A program made the translations under genes and the position numbers. 64,000 nucleotides of DNA from a virus (Duplodnaviria; Caudoviricetes), in IMG/VR virus record IMGVR_UViG_3300034062_005626, one strand, 5' to 3'. Shown here piece after piece: positions 1 to 36,423 of this stretch (position 1 is its first letter; each line of letters starts with the position of its first letter). The notes below the pieces were generated by a model. That model did no database searches. It saw only the letters and a program-made list of their open reading frames with translations, and had not been told where the DNA came from.

Positions 1-78
1 ATAATCCACAAGGTGATAAATCAATGATTAGAGTTTTAGTTAACGCTAAATTTGATAATGAATAAAAAATAAAAAAAT

Positions 79-714
79 ATGTCATCAGCAGAAGAATTAA
101 TGCAAAGATTGGCCGTGTCCAAAAAAATTATGGACAGACAGAGCACAATAAAAAGAGGTGAAATGCCACAAAATATTAATGCAGCACCAATGTTAGAGAG
201 TTTTAATACTCCTCAAGCAACATATAACTTACCTCAAGAATTTTTGTCTGAAAGCCCATCGACAAGTCAAAAATCAAATTATGACCCAACAAAACCGATT
301 GAAGAATCAAAAATTTTAAATTCAAAATTACCAGATGAAATTAAAAAATTAATGATTGAAAGACCTATAGTACAACCTAATACTATGTCAAGTGCGTCTA
401 TATCTGATGATATAATCGAGGGGGCACAAAGGTTAATGAAAATGGAGAATAAAAACTCACAACCATCCGAATCATTACCAAAATCAAACACCAAAACAAC
501 AACTCAAAACACACAATCACAATTCAACATGAATGAAATGAGAACAATGATTAGAGATGTTGTAAGAGATGTTGTAAGAGATGTTATTAGAGAAGAATTA
601 CAAGATGCGGGTGTCATTAGTGAATCATCTGAAGATGCTAACGAATCAATCCAATTTAAAGTTGGTAAGCACATATTTTTAGGTAGAGTTACAAAAATTC
701 AAAAGGTAAAATAA
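79..714 (+). CDS. hypothetical phage protein
   Basis: 211-aa ORF followed by a hairpin terminator; contains an RDVV-RDVV-RDVI-REE repeat helix. Confidence 0.8.
   Translation: MSSAEELMQRLAVSKKIMDRQSTIKRGEMPQNINAAPMLESFNTPQATYNLPQEFLSESPSTSQKSNYDPTKPIEESKILNSKLPDEIKKLMIERPIVQPNTMSSASISDDIIEGAQRLMKMENKNSQPSESLPKSNTKTTTQNTQSQFNMNEMRTMIRDVVRDVVRDVIREELQDAGVISESSEDANESIQFKVGKHIFLGRVTKIQKVK
553..592 (+). repeat. 12-bp tandem repeat (AGAGATGTTGTA x2, AGAGATGTTATT) encoding RDVV repeats
   Basis: read directly from sequence. Confidence 0.85.
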
Positions 715-737
715 CTTTAAACAAAATCAAAAAATGC

Positions 738-764
738 AATCCACCTATTTTAGGTGGATTTTTT
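738..764 (+). terminator. intrinsic terminator
   Basis: AATCCACCTA-TTT-TAGGTGGATT followed by a T run. Confidence 0.85.
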
Positions 765-792
765 ATTTTATTACCTTTTGATAGGTCGGGAC

Positions 793-799
793 TATTTAT
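793..799 (+). promoter_or_regulatory. putative phage late promoter TATTTAT (homing endonuclease)
   Basis: recurrent motif, 6 nt before ATG 806 and downstream of a terminator. Confidence 0.6.
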
Positions 800-805
800 C
801 ATATT

Positions 806-1753
806 ATGGGGAAAAAAATTCAATTAGACGAAGAAGAAGTAGTCAAACAATATCTTAATGGTAAAAGTAGTTCAATTGTTGCGACAGAATTTAAAGTCTC
901 CAAACCAAAAATACTCAGTATTTTAAAAAAACACAACGTAATAAGAAAAAAAGACAGATGTAAAAGTTTGAATTATAAATTAATCAACGAGTATTACGTT
1001 GTTGAAAGAATTTGCCCAACATGTAAGGAAATAATTCAAACTAAGTCAAAAAATAAAATTATTGCGTGTAGAAATCACTTTGTTAAAATTGACAAAAATT
1101 GTGATTGTAAAAATTGTTCATTAAAAAAACAAATAGGTAAAGGAAATCCGTTTTACGGAAAAAAACACGATGAAAAAACAAAAAATAAAATTTCAAAAAG
1201 TAGAAAGGGGAAGGCAAAAGGTTTTGAAAATGGAATGTCAAATCCTGACAATAAAAAAAGAGCTCACGATAATTTAAAACAAAAGTGGAATAATGGTGAA
1301 ATGGAACATGTTAGAAAAATGTTTTCAGAAACTATGAAAAATACTAGAAGGATGGGAAAAATAAAATCAATTAATAGGTCTAAAAAAGAGAAAGAAATAT
1401 TGGAAGAAATAAAAAATATGGGTTACCAAGTAAAACATTCATTAAAAATTGACACAAAAATATGTGACATATATATACCTAAATTAAATTTAATTATTGA
1501 ATATAATGGAGATTATTGGCATTGTAACCCAAAAAAATACGACGCAAGTTATTATCACCAAGTAAAGAAAAAAACCGCACAAGAATTATGGGAATATGAT
1601 AATAATAAAATTGACTTAATAAAAAGTAATGGTTATTTTTTTGAAGTGGTGTGGGAGTCTGAATTGAAATCAAACCCACAAATAATAAATAACTTAATAA
1701 AAAAACATGAATCAAGAGAGCAATCCAACTCCAGACGTTCGCAAAAAAATTAG
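806..1753 (+). mobile_element. free-standing homing endonuclease (HTH + Cys-rich + NUMOD3 + Vsr/DUF559-like EDxHD nuclease domain)
   Basis: N-terminal HTH-like segment; CPTC..CKNC; NUMOD3 GNPFYGKKHDEKTKNKISKSRKG; C-terminal DIYIPKLNLIIEYNGDYWH...VVWESE. Confidence 0.8.
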
Positions 1754-2967
1754 GGTTCTATGCGTCCCTAGCGACCGTACTGGAGTTGGCTGAATTTAAA
1801 GGAAAATTTAGGTCTGTAGACCCCCACGTAATGTTACAAAATAATCACTCAGATGAATTTCACGTAGATATAGATTACGACCCAAAAATTAATGATTATA
1901 ACTATTGGAAACAATATGACATTGTCCATTTCCATAGGTCAATTGGTCAAGATTTTGACCAAGCGAATAAGTTAATTCAAACATTAAATTCTATTGGTGT
2001 AATTACAATTATGGATTTGGACGACTATTGGTTGCCAACTAAAGAACACCCAATCCATCAACTAATCATACAGAATAAAATAAATGAAAAGATAGTTGCA
2101 AACCTAAAAGTGGCCGCACACGTCACAACAACAACATCTTTATTTGCATCAGAAATATCTAAAATTAATAAAAACGTATACGTTCTTCCAAACGCAATTA
2201 ATCCAAAAGAACCTCAATTCAATCATGAAACAAAACCTTCAGATAAACTTCGTTTTGGATGGTTGGGTGGTTCTTCTCACTTACATGATTTAAAATTATT
2301 AAACGGTGTAACAAATAAATTAAAAGATAGTCATGACAAATTTTCATTGTATCTATGTGGTTTCGATACAAGAGGAAGTGTTACTGAAATTAATAAAGAA
2401 ACGGGGGAACAAAAACAAAGGCCGATAAGGCCAGAAGAAACCGTATGGGCACGTTATGAAGAAATTTTTACTGACAATTATAAGTTAGTTTCTCCCCAAC
2501 ATCTTGAATACCTGAAAAAATTTGAGGATTCTGAATATATTATGGAGTCTGAACCTTTTTACAATCGAGTTTGGACAAAACCTGTTACAAGTTACGCTTC
2601 AAATTATAGATTATTTGATGTTTCATTATCACCGATTGTGAATCATATTTTTAACCGAGTTAAGTCACAATTAAAAGTTATTGAAGCAGGTTTTTATAAA
2701 AAAGCAATTATCGCTTCAAATGTTGGACCATATACCATTGATTTAAAACATGCATTAAAAAATGGTCAGTTCTCTGACGGAAACGCACTTTTAGTTGATG
2801 AAGTAAAAAATCATAGTGATTGGGCTAAAAACATGAAAAAATTAATTGATAATCCTAACTTTGCTTATGACTTGGGACAACGATTGTATGAAACGGTGAA
2901 AGACACATATGATTTGAATATGGTCACAAAAAATAGAGCGGAACTTTATAAATCTTTAATAAAATGA
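1707..2967 (+). CDS. GT-B (GT4-like) glycosyltransferase interrupted by a 13-nt insertion (1791-1803)
   Basis: ATG 1707 gives MNQESNPTPDVRKKIRVLCVPSDRTGVG then TGA 1791; the +1 frame continues (G)KFRSVDPHVMLQ... to 2967; removing 13 nt restores SDRTGVGKFRSVDP; C-terminal GT4 motif KSQLKVIEAGFYKKAIIASNVGPY. Confidence 0.8.
1725..1789 (+). other. GC-rich RNA stem-loop immediately 5' of the interruption
   Basis: CCAACTCCAG (1725-1734) is the perfect reverse complement of CTGGAGTTGG (1780-1789); extends via ACG/CGT with a 1-nt bulge; inner hairpin TAGGG (1751-55)/CCCTA (1766-70). Confidence 0.75.
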
Positions 2968-3692
2968 TAAACATACCTATTAACAAAATTTTATTTATCG
3001 ACATTGAAACTGTTGGTATATGTAAGGATTGGCGGACTTGTCAAGAAAATCACCCAAAAATTGCTGAACAATTTGTTAAATACTTTGATTGGTTTTTAAA
3101 GAGATTTCCTGAAGATGATGTTGAGACAAATGGTCTTGAAGAAGAACTTCAAAAAATGAATGATGTTTATTCTTCAAGAGCGGCACTTGTTCCGGAGTTT
3201 GCTAAAATTGTTTGCGTATCAATGGCATTTGTTTTAGAAAACGGTGAAGTAAAAAAACAAACTTTTAAAAATGACAGCGAAGAGGATTTATTGTTGGAAG
3301 TTAGAAATTTATTAGACCGTTGTCACAAATTAGATTTTTATTTGTGTGGTCATAATTTAAAAAACTTTGACATCCCTATGTTGGCAAAACGTATGATTAT
3401 TAACAATATTATGCCATCAAAAATACTCCCGTCATACGACACTAAACCGTGGGAAGTAAAAGCAATTGACACAAAAGAAATTTGGCAATACGGTTCGTAT
3501 AGTTCAATTGGTTCTTTAGATTTAATGTGTTCTTGTTTAGATATTCCAACACCAAAAGATGGTGAAATAAATGGGGGTATGGTTCATCAGGCATATTGGA
3601 ATCAGAACAGACTTGATGAAATTGCAAAATATTGCGAAAAAGACGTTGATGTTTTGATTGAATCAATAAAAAAATTAAAAAGTTTAAAATAA
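2964..3692 (+). CDS. predicted 3'-5' exonuclease (PolB-exo/DnaQ-like)
   Basis: DEDD motifs FIDIET, GHNLKNFDIP, YCEKDV. Confidence 0.85.
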   Translation: MINIPINKILFIDIETVGICKDWRTCQENHPKIAEQFVKYFDWFLKRFPEDDVETNGLEEELQKMNDVYSSRAALVPEFAKIVCVSMAFVLENGEVKKQTFKNDSEEDLLLEVRNLLDRCHKLDFYLCGHNLKNFDIPMLAKRMIINNIMPSKILPSYDTKPWEVKAIDTKEIWQYGSYSSIGSLDLMCSCLDIPTPKDGEINGGMVHQAYWNQNRLDEIAKYCEKDVDVLIESIKKLKSLK

Positions 3693-4294
3693 TGTTTGAA
3701 AATATAAAAGATTTAAAAAATAGCATGAAAGCTTTAAAAGAGCTTCAATCTCAGTTTGGTAATGTTGACATGACAAACCCTGAAAGTATGTTGAAATCCA
3801 TGGGACTTAATGTTGATGAAATCAATCAACATTTTGAAGGTCAATTTACATCAGAAGTTAATTTAAATTTTGTAAATAATAGTGAAAATCAAAATCCTGA
3901 ATACGCATATAAAGGTGATTCGGGATTTGATTTAAGAGCTTCGGAAGAAAAATGGATTTTTCCAAACTCAAGAGTTTTAATACCTACAGGTTTAAAATTT
4001 GACATTCCTGATGGTTATGAAATACAAGTAAGGTCTAAAAGTGGATTAGCCTTAAATCAAGGATTATTTGTTTTAAATTCACCTGGCACGGTTGATAGTG
4101 GATACTTAGGTGAAATACAAGTTATTTTATTTAACACAACAACAGAAAAAGTTAAAATAGAAAAGGGTCAAAAAATTGCACAAGCGGTTCTTTGTCCTGT
4201 TGTTAATGGCAAATGGGTTAATTTAACGCAAATTTCAAATTTAGGCTCAAAAGACCGAAATGATAATGGATTTGGTTCAACAGGTTTAGTATGA
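3692..4294 (+). CDS. dut: trimeric dUTPase with N-terminal extension
   Basis: motifs SGFDL, RSKSGLA, GTVDSGYLGEI, RNDNGFGSTG. Confidence 0.95.
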   Translation: MFENIKDLKNSMKALKELQSQFGNVDMTNPESMLKSMGLNVDEINQHFEGQFTSEVNLNFVNNSENQNPEYAYKGDSGFDLRASEEKWIFPNSRVLIPTGLKFDIPDGYEIQVRSKSGLALNQGLFVLNSPGTVDSGYLGEIQVILFNTTTEKVKIEKGQKIAQAVLCPVVNGKWVNLTQISNLGSKDRNDNGFGSTGLV

Positions 4295-5931
4295 TTACAG
4301 TAGGATTTTCAACAAGAAAAATAGATGACAATTTTGTCTCGATGTTAAAAAAAACATCAGGAGTAAGTAAATTGGAAATAATACCAATCGAAAACAATGG
4401 TGTATATTCTCTTAGTGAAGCTTACAATAAAATTTTAAATGACTCCACTAATGACATTGTTGTATTGATGCATGACGACATTTATTTTGACAGTAAAAAT
4501 TGGGCGTCAAAAGTTTTAAATTATTTTAAAAGAAATTCTGACTACGGCATTCTTGGAGTTGCAGGTTCAACATCATTACCTTCTTCTGGTAAATGGTGGG
4601 AAGATTTTTCAAAACTTAAAGGAATTGTTAATCATGAACATGAAGGAAAAAAATGGGAGTCAAAATATTCACCAAGCAAAGGTAATCAGTTAGATGACGT
4701 ATTGTTAGTAGATGGGTTATTTATAGCAATTAATAAAAAAAATATTAAACACAACTTTAACGAAGAAGTTAAAGGGTTTCACTTTTACGATGTAGATTTT
4801 TCTTTTAGAAATTATTTAGAAGATGTTAAAATAGGTGTTATGTATGATGTTAGAGTCACACATAAATCGATTGGTATGACTAATGAACAATGGGAAAAAA
4901 ATAGAGAGGAATTTGCAGAAAAATATAAAGATGTTTTACCCGTTAAAATAAAAAGAAATCTTACAATCGATTCACCTTTAAAGGTATTATTATCTTGTTT
5001 ATTTTTTAAAACTTTTACAGGTTCAGAAATGTATGTTTATGAATTAGCAAGAGGATTAAAAAAATTAAATTGTGATGTTACGGTACTATCAGATATTAAT
5101 GGGCCTTTATCTCAATTAGCAAAACAACAAGGAATCAAAGTTGTTTCATTTCAAGATGCTCCTGGTTACAAAATGGGAGATGGAAAGTGGGGATTTAATA
5201 CACCACAAGGGTTTCAACCGACACAACCAAATGTAATGTATAAAATTGGTGATGTTAATTATGATATTATACATACCCAACATACTCCAGTTTCAAATCA
5301 AATGTGTCAGATGTATCCAAACATCGATAAAATATCAACAATACATTCTGAAGTCATAGAATTAGAAAATCCAATTATTAACGATTCAATTAAAAAATAT
5401 ATTTGCATTCGTCCTGAGATACAAAACCATATTGTCGAAAAATTTAATATTGATAAAAATAATACTGAAGTAATTTATAATCCAATCGACACAAAAAGAT
5501 TCAATTCAAACAATATTAAAGATGATAATTATGTTTTGTTTGTTGGTACAATTGATTATTTAAGAGAAAATACAATAAGAGATTTAGTAACATACTCCTC
5601 TGAAATTAATAAAGAATTATGGTTAGTTGGTGAAAACAAATCAAATTACTTGGATGATTTATTAAAAAATCCACACGTAAAACATTTTAACTCAACAAGT
5701 AAAGTTGAACAGTATGTTAAAAACTGTTCTGAAACTGCGGGTATTCTTTTGGGAAGAACGACTATTGAAGGTTGGATGTGTAATAAATCTGGGTGGATTT
5801 ACAATGTTGAAAGTAGTGGTTATATTTTAGATAAAAAATTACATACCCCGCCGACAGATGTTAGTAAATTCGACTCAATTGAAGTGGCAAAAAAAATAAA
5901 AGAAGAATATATTAAAGTTTTAAATGATTAA
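4291..5931 (+). CDS. two-domain glycosyltransferase (GT2-like + GT4-like)
   Basis: LMHDDIYF and FHFYDVDFS in the N-half; TGSEMYVYELARGL in the GT-B C-half. Confidence 0.8.
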   Translation: MITVGFSTRKIDDNFVSMLKKTSGVSKLEIIPIENNGVYSLSEAYNKILNDSTNDIVVLMHDDIYFDSKNWASKVLNYFKRNSDYGILGVAGSTSLPSSGKWWEDFSKLKGIVNHEHEGKKWESKYSPSKGNQLDDVLLVDGLFIAINKKNIKHNFNEEVKGFHFYDVDFSFRNYLEDVKIGVMYDVRVTHKSIGMTNEQWEKNREEFAEKYKDVLPVKIKRNLTIDSPLKVLLSCLFFKTFTGSEMYVYELARGLKKLNCDVTVLSDINGPLSQLAKQQGIKVVSFQDAPGYKMGDGKWGFNTPQGFQPTQPNVMYKIGDVNYDIIHTQHTPVSNQMCQMYPNIDKISTIHSEVIELENPIINDSIKKYICIRPEIQNHIVEKFNIDKNNTEVIYNPIDTKRFNSNNIKDDNYVLFVGTIDYLRENTIRDLVTYSSEINKELWLVGENKSNYLDDLLKNPHVKHFNSTSKVEQYVKNCSETAGILLGRTTIEGWMCNKSGWIYNVESSGYILDKKLHTPPTDVSKFDSIEVAKKIKEEYIKVLND

Positions 5932-6661
5932 AGTTGTAAGTTGTTTTTGGAATGTTGAAAACTACATTGAAAAATGTATTAATTCGGTTAAATCTCAAAC
6001 TTATCGGGACTTTAAAATGTATTTAATTGATGATATGTCTAATGACAATACAAATCAAATCATAGAAAAATTAATAGAGGGTGATGAAAGATTTGTTCAT
6101 ATCAAAAACACTGAAAAAAAGTTCAAATTAAAAAATTTAGATGACTTATTGATGGATGAATCATTAATTGATGATGAAGATATTATTGTTGAGTTGGATG
6201 GTGATGATTGGTTTTATAATGAATTAGTTTTACAAAAAGTTTTTGATAGATATTCTAAAAACAAAAATCTTTGGATTACTAACGGTAGTTTTATATATTC
6301 TGATGGAAGAATGGGGTTTTCGGCAAAGGTGAATCCTAACACAATAAGACGTGACTTATTTGTTTTTTCCCATTTAAGAACTTGGAAAGCCCATTTATGG
6401 AGAAGCATAGATGAAGAAATGTTTTTAGATGAAAATAAAAATTATTTTAAATCAGGTGCCGACGTTGCGTACTCATTTCCTATGGTTGAAATGTCAGGTG
6501 AAAGTCATTATGAATTTATACCCGACATACTATTAGTTTATAATGAAGAAAACCCATATAATGACCACAAACAAGGTAGTGCTAGTGGTTCTAATCTTGA
6601 ACAGATAAAAGTATCAAACATGGTTAGAAATAAACAAAAATTAAATAAGTTAGTTAAATGA
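5924..6661 (+). CDS. GT2 family glycosyltransferase
   Basis: CINSVKSQTY, LIDDMSNDNT, ELDGDDW. Confidence 0.85.
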   Translation: MIKVVSCFWNVENYIEKCINSVKSQTYRDFKMYLIDDMSNDNTNQIIEKLIEGDERFVHIKNTEKKFKLKNLDDLLMDESLIDDEDIIVELDGDDWFYNELVLQKVFDRYSKNKNLWITNGSFIYSDGRMGFSAKVNPNTIRRDLFVFSHLRTWKAHLWRSIDEEMFLDENKNYFKSGADVAYSFPMVEMSGESHYEFIPDILLVYNEENPYNDHKQGSASGSNLEQIKVSNMVRNKQKLNKLVK

Positions 6662-34593: not shown

Positions 34594-36423
34594 TTACTTG
34601 TTTAATAATTTATTTATTTTGTCATCAATTTCATTGATAGATAATCTACCTTTTGATAAATCTAATGTATTATCTCTATCAAAAAGTGTGTTTTCCAAAA
34701 TTAAATTTAAATCATTTCTGTTAAAATTTTCAGGAGTTACTGCCCCACCTTCTGCGGGTGGTGGTGGTGGTGCTCCACCTCCAGCTTCAGGAGGTGCTCC
34801 TCCTTCTTCAGGTGGCATTCCTCCACCTTCAGGTGCTGCTCCACCTTCAGCAGGTGCTCCACCTGCTGACGCTTCATCTTTTTTACCATAAAGTGAATCA
34901 AGAGTATCGAATAAACCTGTTTTAGTTATAACTTCTGCTGTTTTACCAAGTTCTGCAGATACAGCTCTTTCAATTCTTTGTTGTTGTAAATCAAGTCTAA
35001 TTTCATCATCAGAAAATCCAAGAATATGTTTTTTGGCCCATGATGCCGATACAGGGGCAACACTATCTTGAATTGGCGCAACCGCATCTTTAAATAATGT
35101 TATTTTTTCTTTCCATAATTCTATACCTAATAAATCAGATTGTTTAGATGGGTTGGTTAATCCAAGTGTAAAATTGGTTAATTCATCTTCGAACCCTAAT
35201 AGAAACAAATGAATGATTGCGATTTTATTTAATTCTGCAATCATAGATTTTTGAATCCTATTGATTGTTCTAGCAAATCTAATATCTAATAGTGATAAAT
35301 TTTTACCATCACCAACAGCCTCTTCAAATCCTAAATACGCTTTAGGTATTCTTAATGCCGTAACAAGTTTCTTTTGGATATATTCAATATCAGCAATTTC
35401 CGCTAAGTTTTTAGCCCCATCTAATGTTTCAATAGGATTAGTTGCTGCTGGGTCTCTAACAGGGATAAAATAATCTTGGTCTACCGCCATTTGATTAAAT
35501 CTCATGTCAACATTTCCTGTTTTTTGGTCTACAATTTGGTCTCTTTTGAATTTATTAGCAACTCTTTGTACGTAAGCATCCACATCTTTGTCATCCATAT
35601 TACCCACAAATACTTTAAACACCCGTCTTTCAGGTGCTCTTGACACTCGGTAAATTAACATCGCATCTTCAGATAAAAGTAATTGTTTCCAAATACGACG
35701 AGCTTTTTCTAACATTGATGTACCATACGGTAATTTTCTATCGTCACCTAATATTCTAAAGTGACCTATCTCCCATGTGTTAAATTCCATGTTTTTTTCT
35801 TTCCATGTGAATTTAAGAGCGTCATTTTCAATTTCTGCTGAATATTTTTCAGGTTGAAATTTCATCCCTTTTTCTAATCTTTCTATTTGGATATTGGGTA
35901 ATTGTTGACAACCTACAACTCCTCTTTCGGGGTCTAATTTTAAATAAACAAAATTATCACCAAACTTACAAGTGTTTCTAATCCACATTGGTAAGTTTGT
36001 ATTAATATCCAATTTGTTATTAAACAAATCGGTTAAAACTGATTTAATTCTTTTTGATTCAGAATAGATTTGTAAAATGTGCCCGTCTTTATCAGGTGTT
36101 GTCGACTCTTCAGCATAAATGTCTAATGCTGCTGAAATTTCGGGGGTATATTCCATGGATTCATAATCATAATATGATGCCATTCTTGTTGGTTCATAAT
36201 AAACCGCCTGTTGATAAAGATTACTTTCTACTTTTTGCCACTGTTGACCAATATACATGGTCTGTTGAGCTTGAAGTTTTTCTTTTTCAAATTCTTGTTT
36301 GTTTGGTGTTTTTAATAATTCTTTTTTATCGAATTTAAAAACGGGTGATTGTTGGTCAATTGTTGAATTAGGTCCAAAAACTCTACCTAATCTTTGCCAA
36401 ACTGTATATTTTTCTTCTGCCAT
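34594..36423 (-). CDS. portal vertex protein (T4 gp20-like)
   Basis: PEISAALDIYAEE, LPYGTSMLEKARRIWKQL.L.EDAMLIYRVSRAPERRVF, DYFIPVR. Confidence 0.95.
   Translation of the reverse strand: MAEEKYTVWQRLGRVFGPNSTIDQQSPVFKFDKKELLKTPNKQEFEKEKLQAQQTMYIGQQWQKVESNLYQQAVYYEPTRMASYYDYESMEYTPEISAALDIYAEESTTPDKDGHILQIYSESKRIKSVLTDLFNNKLDINTNLPMWIRNTCKFGDNFVYLKLDPERGVVGCQQLPNIQIERLEKGMKFQPEKYSAEIENDALKFTWKEKNMEFNTWEIGHFRILGDDRKLPYGTSMLEKARRIWKQLLLSEDAMLIYRVSRAPERRVFKVFVGNMDDKDVDAYVQRVANKFKRDQIVDQKTGNVDMRFNQMAVDQDYFIPVRDPAATNPIETLDGAKNLAEIADIEYIQKKLVTALRIPKAYLGFEEAVGDGKNLSLLDIRFARTINRIQKSMIAELNKIAIIHLFLLGFEDELTNFTLGLTNPSKQSDLLGIELWKEKITLFKDAVAPIQDSVAPVSASWAKKHILGFSDDEIRLDLQQQRIERAVSAELGKTAEVITKTGLFDTLDSLYGKKDEASAGGAPAEGGAAPEGGGMPPEEGGAPPEAGGGAPPPPPAEGGAVTPENFNRNDLNLILENTLFDRDNTLDLSKGRLSINEIDDKINKLLNK

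What the first reader, a model, noticed from the sequence alone, without database searches (positions are those of the whole stretch)
1725..1789. Unusually GC-rich multi-stem RNA structure ending exactly at the take-off codon
Seen: a perfect 10-bp inverted repeat CCAACTCCAG/CTGGAGTTGG, extendable by 3 bp across a bulge, encloses an inner TAGGG/CCCTA hairpin. The segment is GC-rich and uses codons that are rare in this genome (CTA TGC GTC AGC GAC CGT), and part of it is read in two frames. Its 3' arm contains the GG of the take-off codon, the SD-like GGAG and the alternative TTG start. Inference: a selected recoding signal that refolds behind the ribosome, as the gene 60 5' stem-loop does, or one that blocks internal initiation at TTG.
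Basis: partly seen in the sequence, partly recalled or inferred. Interest (0 to 1): 0.7.

Follow-up and report, generated by a model that had tools for sequence, protein, structure and literature searches.

The report
Conserved hairpin at a ribosome-hop site
A strong RNA hairpin that ends at the last codon read before a tiny stop-containing gap in a lake phage's sugar-transferase gene is conserved, with compensating mutations, in every relative that has the gap and in none that lacks it, so it most likely helps ribosomes hop the gap.

Summary
Window 1725-1789 folds into a three-stem hairpin (-31.1 kcal/mol, z -5.8). Apart from a Gly/Pro-rich coding tract, it is the most stable 76-nt fold in the 64-kb window.

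It lies in a 28-codon ORF1 (1707-1790) that encodes the N-terminus of a glycosyltransferase (GT). ORF1 stops at GGC-TGA, and the GT resumes at GGA 1801. About 100 of the 120 listed homologues have a full N-terminus and read ...GVGKFRS... across this point without a break.

I found 41 distinct interrupted alleles in metagenomic phage contigs. All break at this site, with inserts of every length from 5 to 13 nt. Each has a take-off codon (GGY or AGY), an immediate stop, a G-poor gap and a landing codon (same amino acid except L190, AGT to GGC). Only a ribosome hop restores the frame in all of them.

All 41 carry the hairpin (mean about -29 kcal/mol, against -12 or weaker without the insert). Its outer stem covaries, including the pairs with the take-off codon itself.

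The hairpin tracks the insert, not the adjacent Vsr-like homing endonuclease. It survives endonuclease loss and is absent from endonuclease-bearing, uninterrupted genes.

The proposed role, refolding behind the ribosome to drive the hop, is inferred and untested. The SD-like GGAG and TTG-masking ideas are not supported. First-stage notes of this scan flagged the same stretch of this genome. No paper in the searched library describes it.

The parts
806..1753 (+). Homing-endonuclease-like gene (315 aa): NUMOD3 motif plus a Vsr/REase_MTES_1575-like C-terminal nuclease. Its last 47 nt overlap ORF1, and its TAG stop (1751-1753) lies in the inner stem.
   Evidence: Pfam, PHROGs homing endonuclease, weak match to the I-TevI DNA-binding domain. 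30 of 34 interrupted alleles have it or a remnant, against 2 of 48 uninterrupted.
769..1800 (+). Cassette relative to the nearest uninterrupted allele: endonuclease, ORF1 with the hairpin, take-off codon, stop and gap.
   Evidence: BLASTN against L005: window 1-768 and 1801-4200 are 92-96% identical to it, while 769-1800 replaces 146 nt. Homology resumes at the landing codon.
1707..1790 (+). ORF1: 28 codons, made of an N-terminal extension plus the recoded GT N-terminus (...KIRVLCVPSDRTGVG).
   Evidence: Translation. Homologues read ...SDRTGVGKFRS.... ORF1 is ATG-initiated and 26-29 codons long in the 34 alleles tabulated.
1725..1737 (+). Outer stem (P1), 5' arm: a 10-bp perfect stretch plus ACG.
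   Evidence: Fold. Covariation and arm-swap test.
1776..1789 (+). Outer stem (P1), 3' arm: CGT, bulged A1779, then 10 nt ending on the first two bases of the take-off codon.
   Evidence: Fold. The P1 3' end lies at -2 to +1 relative to the first take-off base in all 34 alleles examined.
1739..1774 (+). Middle stem (TCGC 1739-1742 with GCGA 1771-1774) and inner stem (TAGGG 1751-1755 with CCCTA 1766-1770).
   Evidence: Fold. The middle helix is about 92% paired across alleles. The inner helix is about 72% paired and differs between groups.
1788..1790 (+). Take-off codon GGC (Gly).
   Evidence: Take-off is GGY in 34 of 34 alleles of the close GT set, and AGY (5) or GGY (2) in the 7 further loci.
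1791..1800 (+). Coding gap: TGA stop (1791-1793) plus 7 nt, with a second stop TAA at 1797-1799. The only G is the one inside the stop codon.
   Evidence: In relatives the unread stretch between take-off and landing codon is 2-10 nt, that is, inserts of 5-13 nt.
1801..1803 (+). Landing codon GGA, in the +1 frame relative to ORF1.
   Evidence: Homology to the uninterrupted allele resumes here.
1804..2967 (+). Rest of the glycosyltransferase gene (KFRSVDPH... to the TGA stop).
   Evidence: dN/dS is 0.04-0.2 among interrupted alleles.

Best explanation
The segment is a selected mRNA hairpin of about 65 nt with three stems. It belongs to a programmed ribosome hop (a short translational bypass) inside a phage glycosyltransferase gene.

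How it would work: ribosomes start at ATG 1707 and melt the hairpin while reading 28 codons. They pause with peptidyl-tRNA-Gly on GGC 1788-1790 and the TGA stop in the A site. By then the 5' half of the hairpin has left the ribosome and the inner and middle stems have re-formed at the mRNA exit. As the outer stem zips up, its 3' strand, which is the 10-13 nt ending in the first two bases of the take-off codon, is drawn out of the ribosome. This would break the codon-anticodon pairing and slide the mRNA forward until the tRNA re-pairs with GGA 1801-1803. Reading then continues at AAA 1804 and gives the uninterrupted ...GVGKFRS... protein.

The gap was brought in by a homing-endonuclease cassette and probably destroys the enzyme's target site.

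Shown here: the structure, its conservation and covariation, its exclusive link to the interruption, and purifying selection on both halves of the gene. Inferred: that a hop occurs, and that hairpin refolding drives it.
For: (1) Structure: -31.1 kcal/mol, z -5.8. It is the top non-low-complexity fold of the window.

(2) All 34 distinct interrupted alleles of the close GT set fold the same way, with mean MFE -28.7, against -12.3 for the same 84-nt segment in 50 distinct uninterrupted alleles.

(3) Among endonuclease-adjacent GT genes, 22 interrupted ones average -29.3, while about 10 uninterrupted ones score -5 to -12.

(4) Covariance model R2 finds the window (58.8 bits, E 1e-9) and 7 divergent interrupted loci that were not in its training set. 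It finds none of 30 uninterrupted loci.

(5) Pair counts on 40 distinct rows:
- 84.6% of cells are paired, against 76.3% when shuffled (0 of 500) and 46% or less when the partner is slid.
- 78 cells show a change on both sides, against 26.6 expected (0 of 500).
- One P1 pair shows six pair types (AU 13, CG 7, GC 6, UA 6, UG 5, GU 1).
- The pair with the Val third base shows AU, CG, UA, GC and GU.
- The partner of the first take-off base shows UG 18, CG 15 and UA 4.

(6) An alignment-free arm-swap test gives cognate arms -16.9 kcal/mol and permuted arms -12.8 (0 of 20,000 permutations as low).

(7) Many G.U pairs place the selection on the sense-strand RNA.

(8) A hop is required. Inserts of 5, 6, 7, 8, 9, 10, 11, 12 and 13 nt all sit at one site. 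All have take-off GGY or AGY, an immediate TGA or TAA, and a landing GGN or AGC directly before the next conserved codon.

(9) Both halves are under protein-level selection. dN/dS of the downstream part is 0.04-0.2, including between alleles that share an 11- or 13-nt out-of-frame insert. Ser and Arg codons switch between six-fold families on both sides of the gap.

(10) There is no conserved alternative start for the downstream part.

(11) The hairpin persists where the endonuclease is truncated or gone (12 of 34 alleles).

(12) L193 and L201 each carry two copies of the GT 5' end. Only the copy that ends in take-off plus stop has the hairpin (-32.1 and -29.3 against -5.1 and -6.6).

(13) Literature: a refolding upstream hairpin next to the shift site stimulates forward (+1) slippage on 70S ribosomes (PMC6321510). 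Pairing of mRNA as it leaves the ribosome is proposed as the forward driver in gene 60 (bioRxiv 10.1101/2024.12.09.627546).
Against: - There is no measurement of translation. Neither the hop nor the hairpin's effect on it is shown.
- The pair-count alignments were fitted to the model. The two measures that are most robust to relatedness (number of pairs with double changes, further pair types) do not beat the shuffles (129 of 500 and 54 of 500).
- The 3' arm lies in conserved G-rich coding sequence, so its position next to the take-off codon is partly forced.
- In 10 of 34 alleles P1 stops 2 nt before the take-off codon.
- P1 length does not track gap length.
- Landing on GGA after take-off from GGY (8 alleles, this window included) leaves a third-base mismatch for a GCC-anticodon tRNA. 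The host's tRNA set is unknown.
- The hairpin starts 11-21 nt after the ORF1 ATG, so it could also, or instead, control initiation.
Confidence: 0.6

Rival explanations
1. The hairpin is selected but acts on something other than the hop. It might throttle initiation at the ORF1 ATG, couple ORF1 translation to the overlapping endonuclease gene, or act as an mRNA processing or stability element. The hop itself would rely on the stop codon and the matched codons alone.
For: P1 begins only 11-21 nt downstream of the ORF1 ATG. The endonuclease stop lies just before or inside the hairpin. In the gene 60 family the 5' stem-loop is not conserved between clades (bioRxiv 10.1101/2022.08.31.505936).
Against: Uninterrupted GT genes, with or without the endonuclease, do without any such hairpin. 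The hairpin is kept after endonuclease loss. The P1 3' end is held within 4 nt of the take-off codon, while its distance from the ATG varies by 10 nt. P1 covaries with the take-off codon's own bases.
Confidence: 0.2
2. The hairpin is a by-product of a G+C-rich foreign co-conversion tract. The interrupted GT would be a decaying pseudogene, or a split gene whose two pieces are made separately.
For: The segment is part of an imported cassette with atypical codons. The endonuclease decays in several alleles.
Against: Compensatory changes keep the pairing across lineages. dN/dS is 0.04-0.2 downstream of out-of-frame inserts, with dS up to saturation. ORF1 residues are conserved through synonymous and six-fold codon switches. 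There is no start codon for the downstream part in most alleles. Matched take-off and landing codons across nine insert lengths have no use in a split gene. The identical interrupted allele stands in lake DNA runs from 2016 and 2024.
Confidence: 0.05
3. The inverted repeat acts at the DNA level, for example as a cruciform or recognition element for the homing endonuclease or for recombination.
For: It lies inside a mobile cassette, about 35 nt from the endonuclease stop.
Against: Numerous G.U pairs (for example UG 18, GU 22, UG 11 at single positions) would be A.C mismatches on the other strand. The structure is absent from endonuclease-bearing uninterrupted alleles and kept without the endonuclease.
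Confidence: 0.03
4. The hairpin masks the in-frame TTG (1786) or an SD-like GGAG to prevent internal initiation.
For: In the window, TTG 1786 opens the downstream frame and GGAG precedes it. Both lie in the 3' arm.
Against: TTG is in the downstream frame only with 13-nt inserts, and 32 of 34 alleles have no upstream start at all. The tetramer is GGGG or GGCG in most alleles. SD-like motifs precede 1 of 55 genes in this window.
Confidence: 0.02

Closest known systems
Phage T4 gene 60 bypass cassette with the MobA homing endonuclease (Topo2L family; Manning & Atkins, bioRxiv 10.1101/2022.08.31.505936)
   Same: A non-coding insert sits at an invariant Gly, with the take-off codon followed by a stop. 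The landing codon is matched and the gap is free of premature landing triplets. ORF1 has an N-terminal extension. The cassette is physically linked to a homing endonuclease and is kept after that enzyme decays. Structure in mRNA leaving the ribosome is proposed as the forward driver.
   Different: The host gene is unrelated (GT, not topoisomerase) and the endonuclease is unrelated (NUMOD3 plus Vsr-like, not HNH MobA). The insert is 5-13 nt (2-10 unread nt before the landing codon), against a 50-nt gap in gene 60. There is no room for a take-off stem-loop in the gap. There is no usable mini-SD, since the phage shows no SD use. ORF1 is 26-29 codons, not 46. Here the 5' hairpin is the conserved, covarying element, whereas the gene 60 5' stem-loop is reported as not conserved between clades.
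[quoted passage not shown]
   Same: A stable hairpin has its 3' edge abutting the E/P-site codons, acts from the mRNA exit side, and works with a stop or slow codon in the A site. This was shown on 70S ribosomes.
   Different: Those hairpins are engineered or viral attenuators giving 1-nt shifts. Here the shift is 5-13 nt, with re-pairing at a matched codon.
prfB (RF2) +1 frameshift with an internal Shine-Dalgarno duplex (from my own knowledge, and as discussed in PMC6321510)
   Same: A stop codon sits in the A site, with a duplex a few nt upstream of the P-site codon that favours forward slippage.
   Different: In prfB the duplex is mRNA with rRNA. Here it is intramolecular, in a phage without SD use.
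Mitochondrial 'byp' elements of Magnusiomyces capitatus (as cited in 10.1101/2022.08.31.505936)
   Same: Bypass is SD-independent, the take-off/landing match tolerates wobble or larger deviations, and many copies have variable gaps.
   Different: The byp gaps are longer (tens of nt, from my own knowledge), the byps are not linked to homing endonucleases, and they are mitochondrial.

Membership tests
Programmed translational bypassing (gene 60 type) | Matched take-off and landing codons for one peptidyl-tRNA | tested here: met
   The pairs are GGY to GGT, GGC or GGA, and AGY to AGC. One is AGT to GGC, which allows a G.U at the first position. This covers 41 alleles and nine insert lengths.
Programmed translational bypassing (gene 60 type) | Stop or slow codon in the A site at take-off | tested here: met
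   TGA or TAA directly follows the take-off codon in every interrupted allele. TGA is a true stop in this phage: it ends the GT gene itself.
Programmed translational bypassing (gene 60 type) | The two ORFs together equal one protein of uninterrupted homologues, and both are under purifying selection | tested here: met
   404-aa homologues read through the junction. dN/dS is 0.04-0.2.
Programmed translational bypassing (gene 60 type) | Take-off stem-loop formed by the start of the gap (A-site structure) | tested here: not met
   The unread stretch between take-off and landing codon is only 2-10 nt and A-rich. No conserved structure is possible there.
Programmed translational bypassing (gene 60 type) | Sequence homology to the gene 60 / Topo2L cassette | tested here: not met
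   The gene and the endonuclease family are different. There was no Rfam hit.
Programmed translational bypassing (gene 60 type) | A single polypeptide made across the gap; a nascent-peptide signal | not testable with these tools
   A conserved N-terminal extension exists, but it overlaps the RNA arms, so the peptide and RNA constraints cannot be separated.
Homing-endonuclease cassette with a self-protecting insert (MobA-like) | The insert co-occurs with the endonuclease gene and outlives it | tested here: met
   Among interrupted alleles, 22 have a full endonuclease, 8 a remnant and 4 none. Among uninterrupted alleles, 2 of 48 have the endonuclease.
Homing-endonuclease cassette with a self-protecting insert (MobA-like) | The insert blocks cleavage of the carrier genome | not testable with these tools
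   There is only a hint: endonuclease-bearing uninterrupted alleles are densely recoded around the site.
Upstream refolding-hairpin stimulators of forward slippage | A stable, evolutionarily maintained hairpin whose 3' edge abuts the P-site codon | tested here: met
Upstream refolding-hairpin stimulators of forward slippage | Disruption lowers recoding and compensation restores it | not testable with these tools
   This needs reporter assays.
Any Rfam family | Match at or near the gathering score | tested here: not met
   cmscan of window 1-6000 at E up to 10 gave nothing at 1700-1830.

The most novel reading that the evidence does not exclude
The hairpin is the principal driver of an efficient, Shine-Dalgarno-independent hop. 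Hairpin, GGY or AGY take-off codon, stop and a matched codon 5-13 nt downstream would then form a minimal, portable bypass module. Its outer stem would compete with the anticodon for the first two bases of the take-off codon and pull the mRNA through the ribosome. Nature has supplied a graded series of gap lengths (every value from 5 to 13 nt) with which to test the 'pairing of exiting mRNA' model.
Probability: 0.35. Interest if true: 0.9.

Novelty: new variant of a known kind. Interest (0 to 1): 0.8.

Why it matters
Translational bypassing has rested on one bacterial-virus family, T4 gene 60 and its homologues. A 2022 survey still called that cassette unique. In that family the role of upstream mRNA pairing is disputed, because the 5' stem-loop is not conserved.

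This is a second, unrelated, endonuclease-borne family. Its only conserved mRNA element is a covarying 5' hairpin that abuts the take-off codon. It comes in a phage without SD use, and with natural gaps of every length from 5 to 13 nt.

That makes an open question directly testable: does refolding of exiting mRNA drive forward sliding? It also shows how a homing endonuclease can place a target-destroying insert in a conserved codon without killing the gene. Finally, it warns that gene callers truncate such genes: among the listed homologues in public collections, 13 are called as 378 aa and one as 393 aa.

Tried and rejected
- Rfam scan: no family.
- BLASTN of 700-3000 against cultured phage records: no match.
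- tRNA scan of the window: none. No whole genome is held for this window, so the tRNA-Gly repertoire could not be read.
- RNAalifold on the plain MAFFT alignment gave no structure, because the 5' arm shifts register between groups. I replaced it with covariance models and an alignment-free arm-swap test.
- Model R1, built from one group only, scored the window at only 16.4 bits (E 0.34). The broader model R2 recovered it.
- The gap=2 class and two other hits of the first pattern scan were unrelated sequences and were dropped.
- Read-laying: one contig of an RNA library (record 18, 1665-1826, no differences) contains the 13-nt insert. It extends only 23 nt past the insert, and DNA carry-over cannot be excluded, so it is not used as evidence. 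The other RNA contigs did not cover the site.
- The AlphaFold model of the uninterrupted GT was poor (mean pLDDT 52.7). It only suggests that the break lies between the Gly-rich loop after strand 1 (residues 4-9) and the first helix (from residue 18). No fold search was run on it.
- Alternative genetic codes (TGA as sense) were rejected. TAA variants and out-of-frame inserts exist, and TGA ends normal genes here.
- Readthrough or a 1-nt frameshift was rejected as a general reading, because no single such event fits all nine insert lengths.
- No correlation was seen between hairpin stability and gap length.
Full report
**What is in the window**

The window is AT-rich (31% GC) and phage-like. 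Gene 79-714 ends in a terminator-like hairpin. Then comes a 315-aa ORF (806-1753) with a NUMOD3 motif and a Vsr/REase_MTES_1575-like C-terminus. PHROGs calls it a homing endonuclease (HEG).

A glycosyltransferase (GT) gene follows. Its first 28 codons (ATG 1707 to GGC 1788-1790) are in one frame and stop at TGA 1791. The rest of the gene (from GGA 1801, then AAA TTT ...) is in the +1 frame.

Of the 120 best database homologues listed, about 100 have a full N-terminus (402-443 aa). One 404-aa protein is 100% identical downstream of the junction. They read ...SD[RK]TGVGKFRS... without a break, apart from two with point substitutions. A further 13 are called as 378 aa and one as 393 aa, the sizes a gene caller gives for an interrupted allele. 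The window therefore carries a 13-nt insert, GG[C TGA ATT TAA AGG]A, at an invariant Gly.

**The observation**

- P1: 10 bp, extended by 3 bp across the bulged A1779.
- P2: TCGC with GCGA.
- P3: TAGGG with CCCTA.

The MFE is -31.1 kcal/mol with z -5.8. In a scan of 25,570 76-nt windows on both strands (mean -8.7, sd 4.1), only a Gly/Pro/Ala-rich tract of the putative portal gene near 34.7 kb is more stable. The rare codons, the high GC and the two-frame overlap are all confirmed. A bare 10-bp inverted repeat is not unusual here.

**Relatives**

Two kinds of search were run on IMG/VR: searches for GT relatives, and two degenerate-pattern scans for 'Gly-Val-Gly, stop, 0-30 nt, Gly-Lys-Phe/Tyr-Arg'. 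Together they gave 34 distinct interrupted alleles. A scan anchored on the HEG added seven more, several of them in a second GT subfamily that reads ...GVS|YFRSTKPH.

All are broken at the same codon. Every insert length from 5 to 13 nt occurs:

| Insert (nt) | Example junction |
|---|---|
| 5 | AGT-TG-AGC |
| 6 | GGC-TGA-GGT, GGT-TAA-GGT |
| 7, 8, 9 | AGC-TGA...-AGC |
| 10 | GGC-TGAATTA-GGT |
| 11, 12 | GGT-TAA...-GGT |
| 13 | this window |

Every allele shares four features:
- The take-off codon is GGY or AGY.
- The next codon is TGA or TAA.
- The spacer is A-rich and has almost no G.
- A landing codon (same amino acid except L190, AGT to GGC) sits directly before the next conserved codon.

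One mechanism fits every length: the peptidyl-tRNA leaves the take-off codon and re-pairs at the landing codon. Readthrough or 1-nt shifts would need a different event for each length and would add 2-4 residues to an invariant loop.

**Is the gene alive?**

- Downstream of the landing codon, dN/dS among interrupted alleles is 0.04-0.2. Examples: window against L096, both with 13-nt inserts, dS 0.54 and omega 0.05; L111 against L129, both with 11-nt inserts, dS 0.62 and omega 0.06. An all-interrupted clade of 11 alleles has a median omega of 0.13.
- ORF1 is always ATG-initiated and 26-29 codons long. Its GT-derived part keeps its residues while Ser and Arg codons switch between six-fold families.
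- Most alleles have no start codon that could open the downstream part.
- The identical interrupted stretch stands in 18 lake and freshwater DNA runs dated 2016-2024.

**The hairpin goes with the interruption**

- Every interrupted allele folds into the same kind of three-stem hairpin. The P1 3' strand ends 2 nt before, or on the first or second base of, the take-off codon.
- Mean MFE of the 84 nt ending at the take-off codon is -28.7 (34 alleles). The same segment scores -12.3 in 50 distinct uninterrupted alleles.
- In the HEG-anchored set the values are -29.3 (22 interrupted) against -5 to -12 (about 10 uninterrupted GT genes that have the HEG next to them).
- Covariance model R2 finds the window (58.8 bits, E 1e-9) and all seven divergent loci that were outside its training set. 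It finds none of 30 uninterrupted loci.
- The HEG is truncated or gone in 12 of 34 interrupted alleles. L001 lacks window 788-1370 and L002 lacks 705-1481. The hairpin and insert remain in all of them.
- L193 and L201 give an internal control. Each keeps the native, AT-rich GT 5' fragment upstream of the HEG, with no hairpin (-5.1 and -6.6). Each also has the cassette's own copy downstream, which ends in take-off plus stop and folds at -32.1 and -29.3.

**Covariation**

On the model-fitted alignment of 41 sequences:
- 84.6% of cells pair, against 76.3% when shuffled (0 of 500) and 46% or less when the partner is slid.
- 78 cells carry changes on both sides, against 26.6 expected (0 of 500).
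- The outer helices are about 92% paired.
- One P1 pair shows six pair types.
- The Val third base pairs as T-A, G-C, C-G and A-T in different lineages.
- Where the take-off codon is AGC instead of GGC, the 5' arm reads CT instead of CC.

The two count-type measures that are most robust to relatedness do not exceed the shuffles, and the alignment is fitted to the model. I therefore added an alignment-free test. Duplex energy of each 5' arm region with its own 3' arm is -16.9 kcal/mol, against -12.8 for permuted partners over 19 distinct 3' arms (0 of 20,000 permutations as low). Frequent G.U pairs place the constraint on the sense RNA, not on duplex DNA.

**The mobile cassette**

Against its uninterrupted near-twin L005, window 769-1800 replaces 146 nt, and homology resumes at the landing codon. 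On the GT tree the interrupted state needs at least 10-14 changes, as expected for repeated homing or recombination.

Some HEG-bearing alleles are uninterrupted (L003/L004, L078, L176 and others). They have no hairpin, but the alleles whose sequence I inspected (L003/L004, L078) are densely recoded around the site. This suggests that recoding and the hop insert are two alternative ways of escaping self-cleavage. That point is inference.

**Mechanism (inferred)**

At take-off, the P1 3' strand and the take-off codon are inside the ribosome, while the 5' arm, P2 and P3 are already outside. Zipping of P1 would draw the mRNA out through the exit and compete with the anticodon for the first two codon bases. 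That favours forward sliding until the tRNA finds the next cognate codon in a gap that offers no earlier landing triplet.

Precedents:
- Refolding upstream hairpins next to the shift site stimulate +1 slippage on 70S ribosomes and mimic the internal SD duplex (PMC3639245, PMC6321510).
- Pairing of exiting mRNA is proposed as the forward driver in gene 60 (10.1101/2024.12.09.627546).

This phage shows no SD use (1 of 55 gene starts).

**Comparison with what is known**

The closest system is the T4 gene 60 / MobA cassette. A 2022 survey found all its homologues in topoisomerase genes, called the cassette unique, and found its 5' stem-loop not conserved. The present family shares the logic: a HEG-borne insert at an invariant Gly, a stop after take-off, a matched landing codon, and retention after HEG loss. 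It differs in several ways:
- It is not homologous in either the host gene or the endonuclease.
- Its inserts are 5-13 nt, against a 50-nt gap in gene 60.
- It has no take-off stem-loop and no mini-SD.
- It has a conserved, covarying 5' hairpin.

Five full-text searches found no description of it. First-stage notes of this scan on the same genome proposed the hop and the cassette. I reached the same reading from the data above.

**Verdict**

The hairpin is real, selected, and specific to the recoding site. Its role as the driver of a ribosome hop is the best-supported explanation (about 0.6) but is untested. The TTG-masking and SD-like sub-claims are not supported.

Noticed in passing
L193:1399-1494 and 2368-2470; L201 about 1360-1470 and 2360-2471: These loci keep the native AT-rich GT 5' fragment (through ...GVS, or GVSYF in L201) upstream of the endonuclease, plus the cassette's own recoded copy downstream. 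The element therefore inserted inside the gene, within a few nt of the hop site, and brought a replacement 5' end. In L193 the endonuclease is split into two ORFs and so is probably frameshifted.
   Followed up: partly
L003:2109-3010 (= L004), L078, L176, L181, L182, L192, L172: A full-length endonuclease sits directly upstream of an uninterrupted GT gene. In the alleles whose sequence was inspected (L003/L004, L078), the first ~25 codons are unusually G+C-rich or recoded, for example CGG/ACC/CGT codons, and K to R in L078. This may be an alternative way of protecting the target site.
   Followed up: partly
L184, L201, L193, L180, L189, L190 (junctions listed): A second GT subfamily (...GVS|YFRSTKPH) uses Ser take-off and landing codons (AGY to AGC) with 5-, 7-, 8- and 9-nt inserts. 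L190 pairs take-off AGT with landing GGC, which would put Ser in place of the usual Gly.
   Followed up: partly
window 34730-34860 (- strand gene 34594-36423): The only fold in the window more stable than the hairpin is a Gly/Pro/Ala-rich low-complexity tract near the C-terminus of a 609-aa protein (putative portal). This is a composition effect, not a structured RNA candidate (z only -2.8).
   Followed up: yes
window, all gene starts: Shine-Dalgarno-like tetramers precede only 1 of 55 long ORFs (background 10%). This points to a host with SD-independent initiation, such as Bacteroidota. No tRNA genes are present in the 64 kb.
   Followed up: partly
window 729-769: A terminator-like hairpin followed by a T-run sits after gene 79-714, just before the left end of the cassette (769).
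   Followed up: no
P0005, P0007-P0017, P0055, P0056: Public gene calls for interrupted alleles start at an internal Met (378 aa) or at TTG (393 aa). The recoded N-terminus is missed by annotation pipelines.
   Followed up: yes
window 1792-1811: In the 13-nt variant the gap and the first downstream codons can form a weak AU-only hairpin with the landing GGA in its loop. It is not conserved in L096 or in other gap classes.
   Followed up: partly
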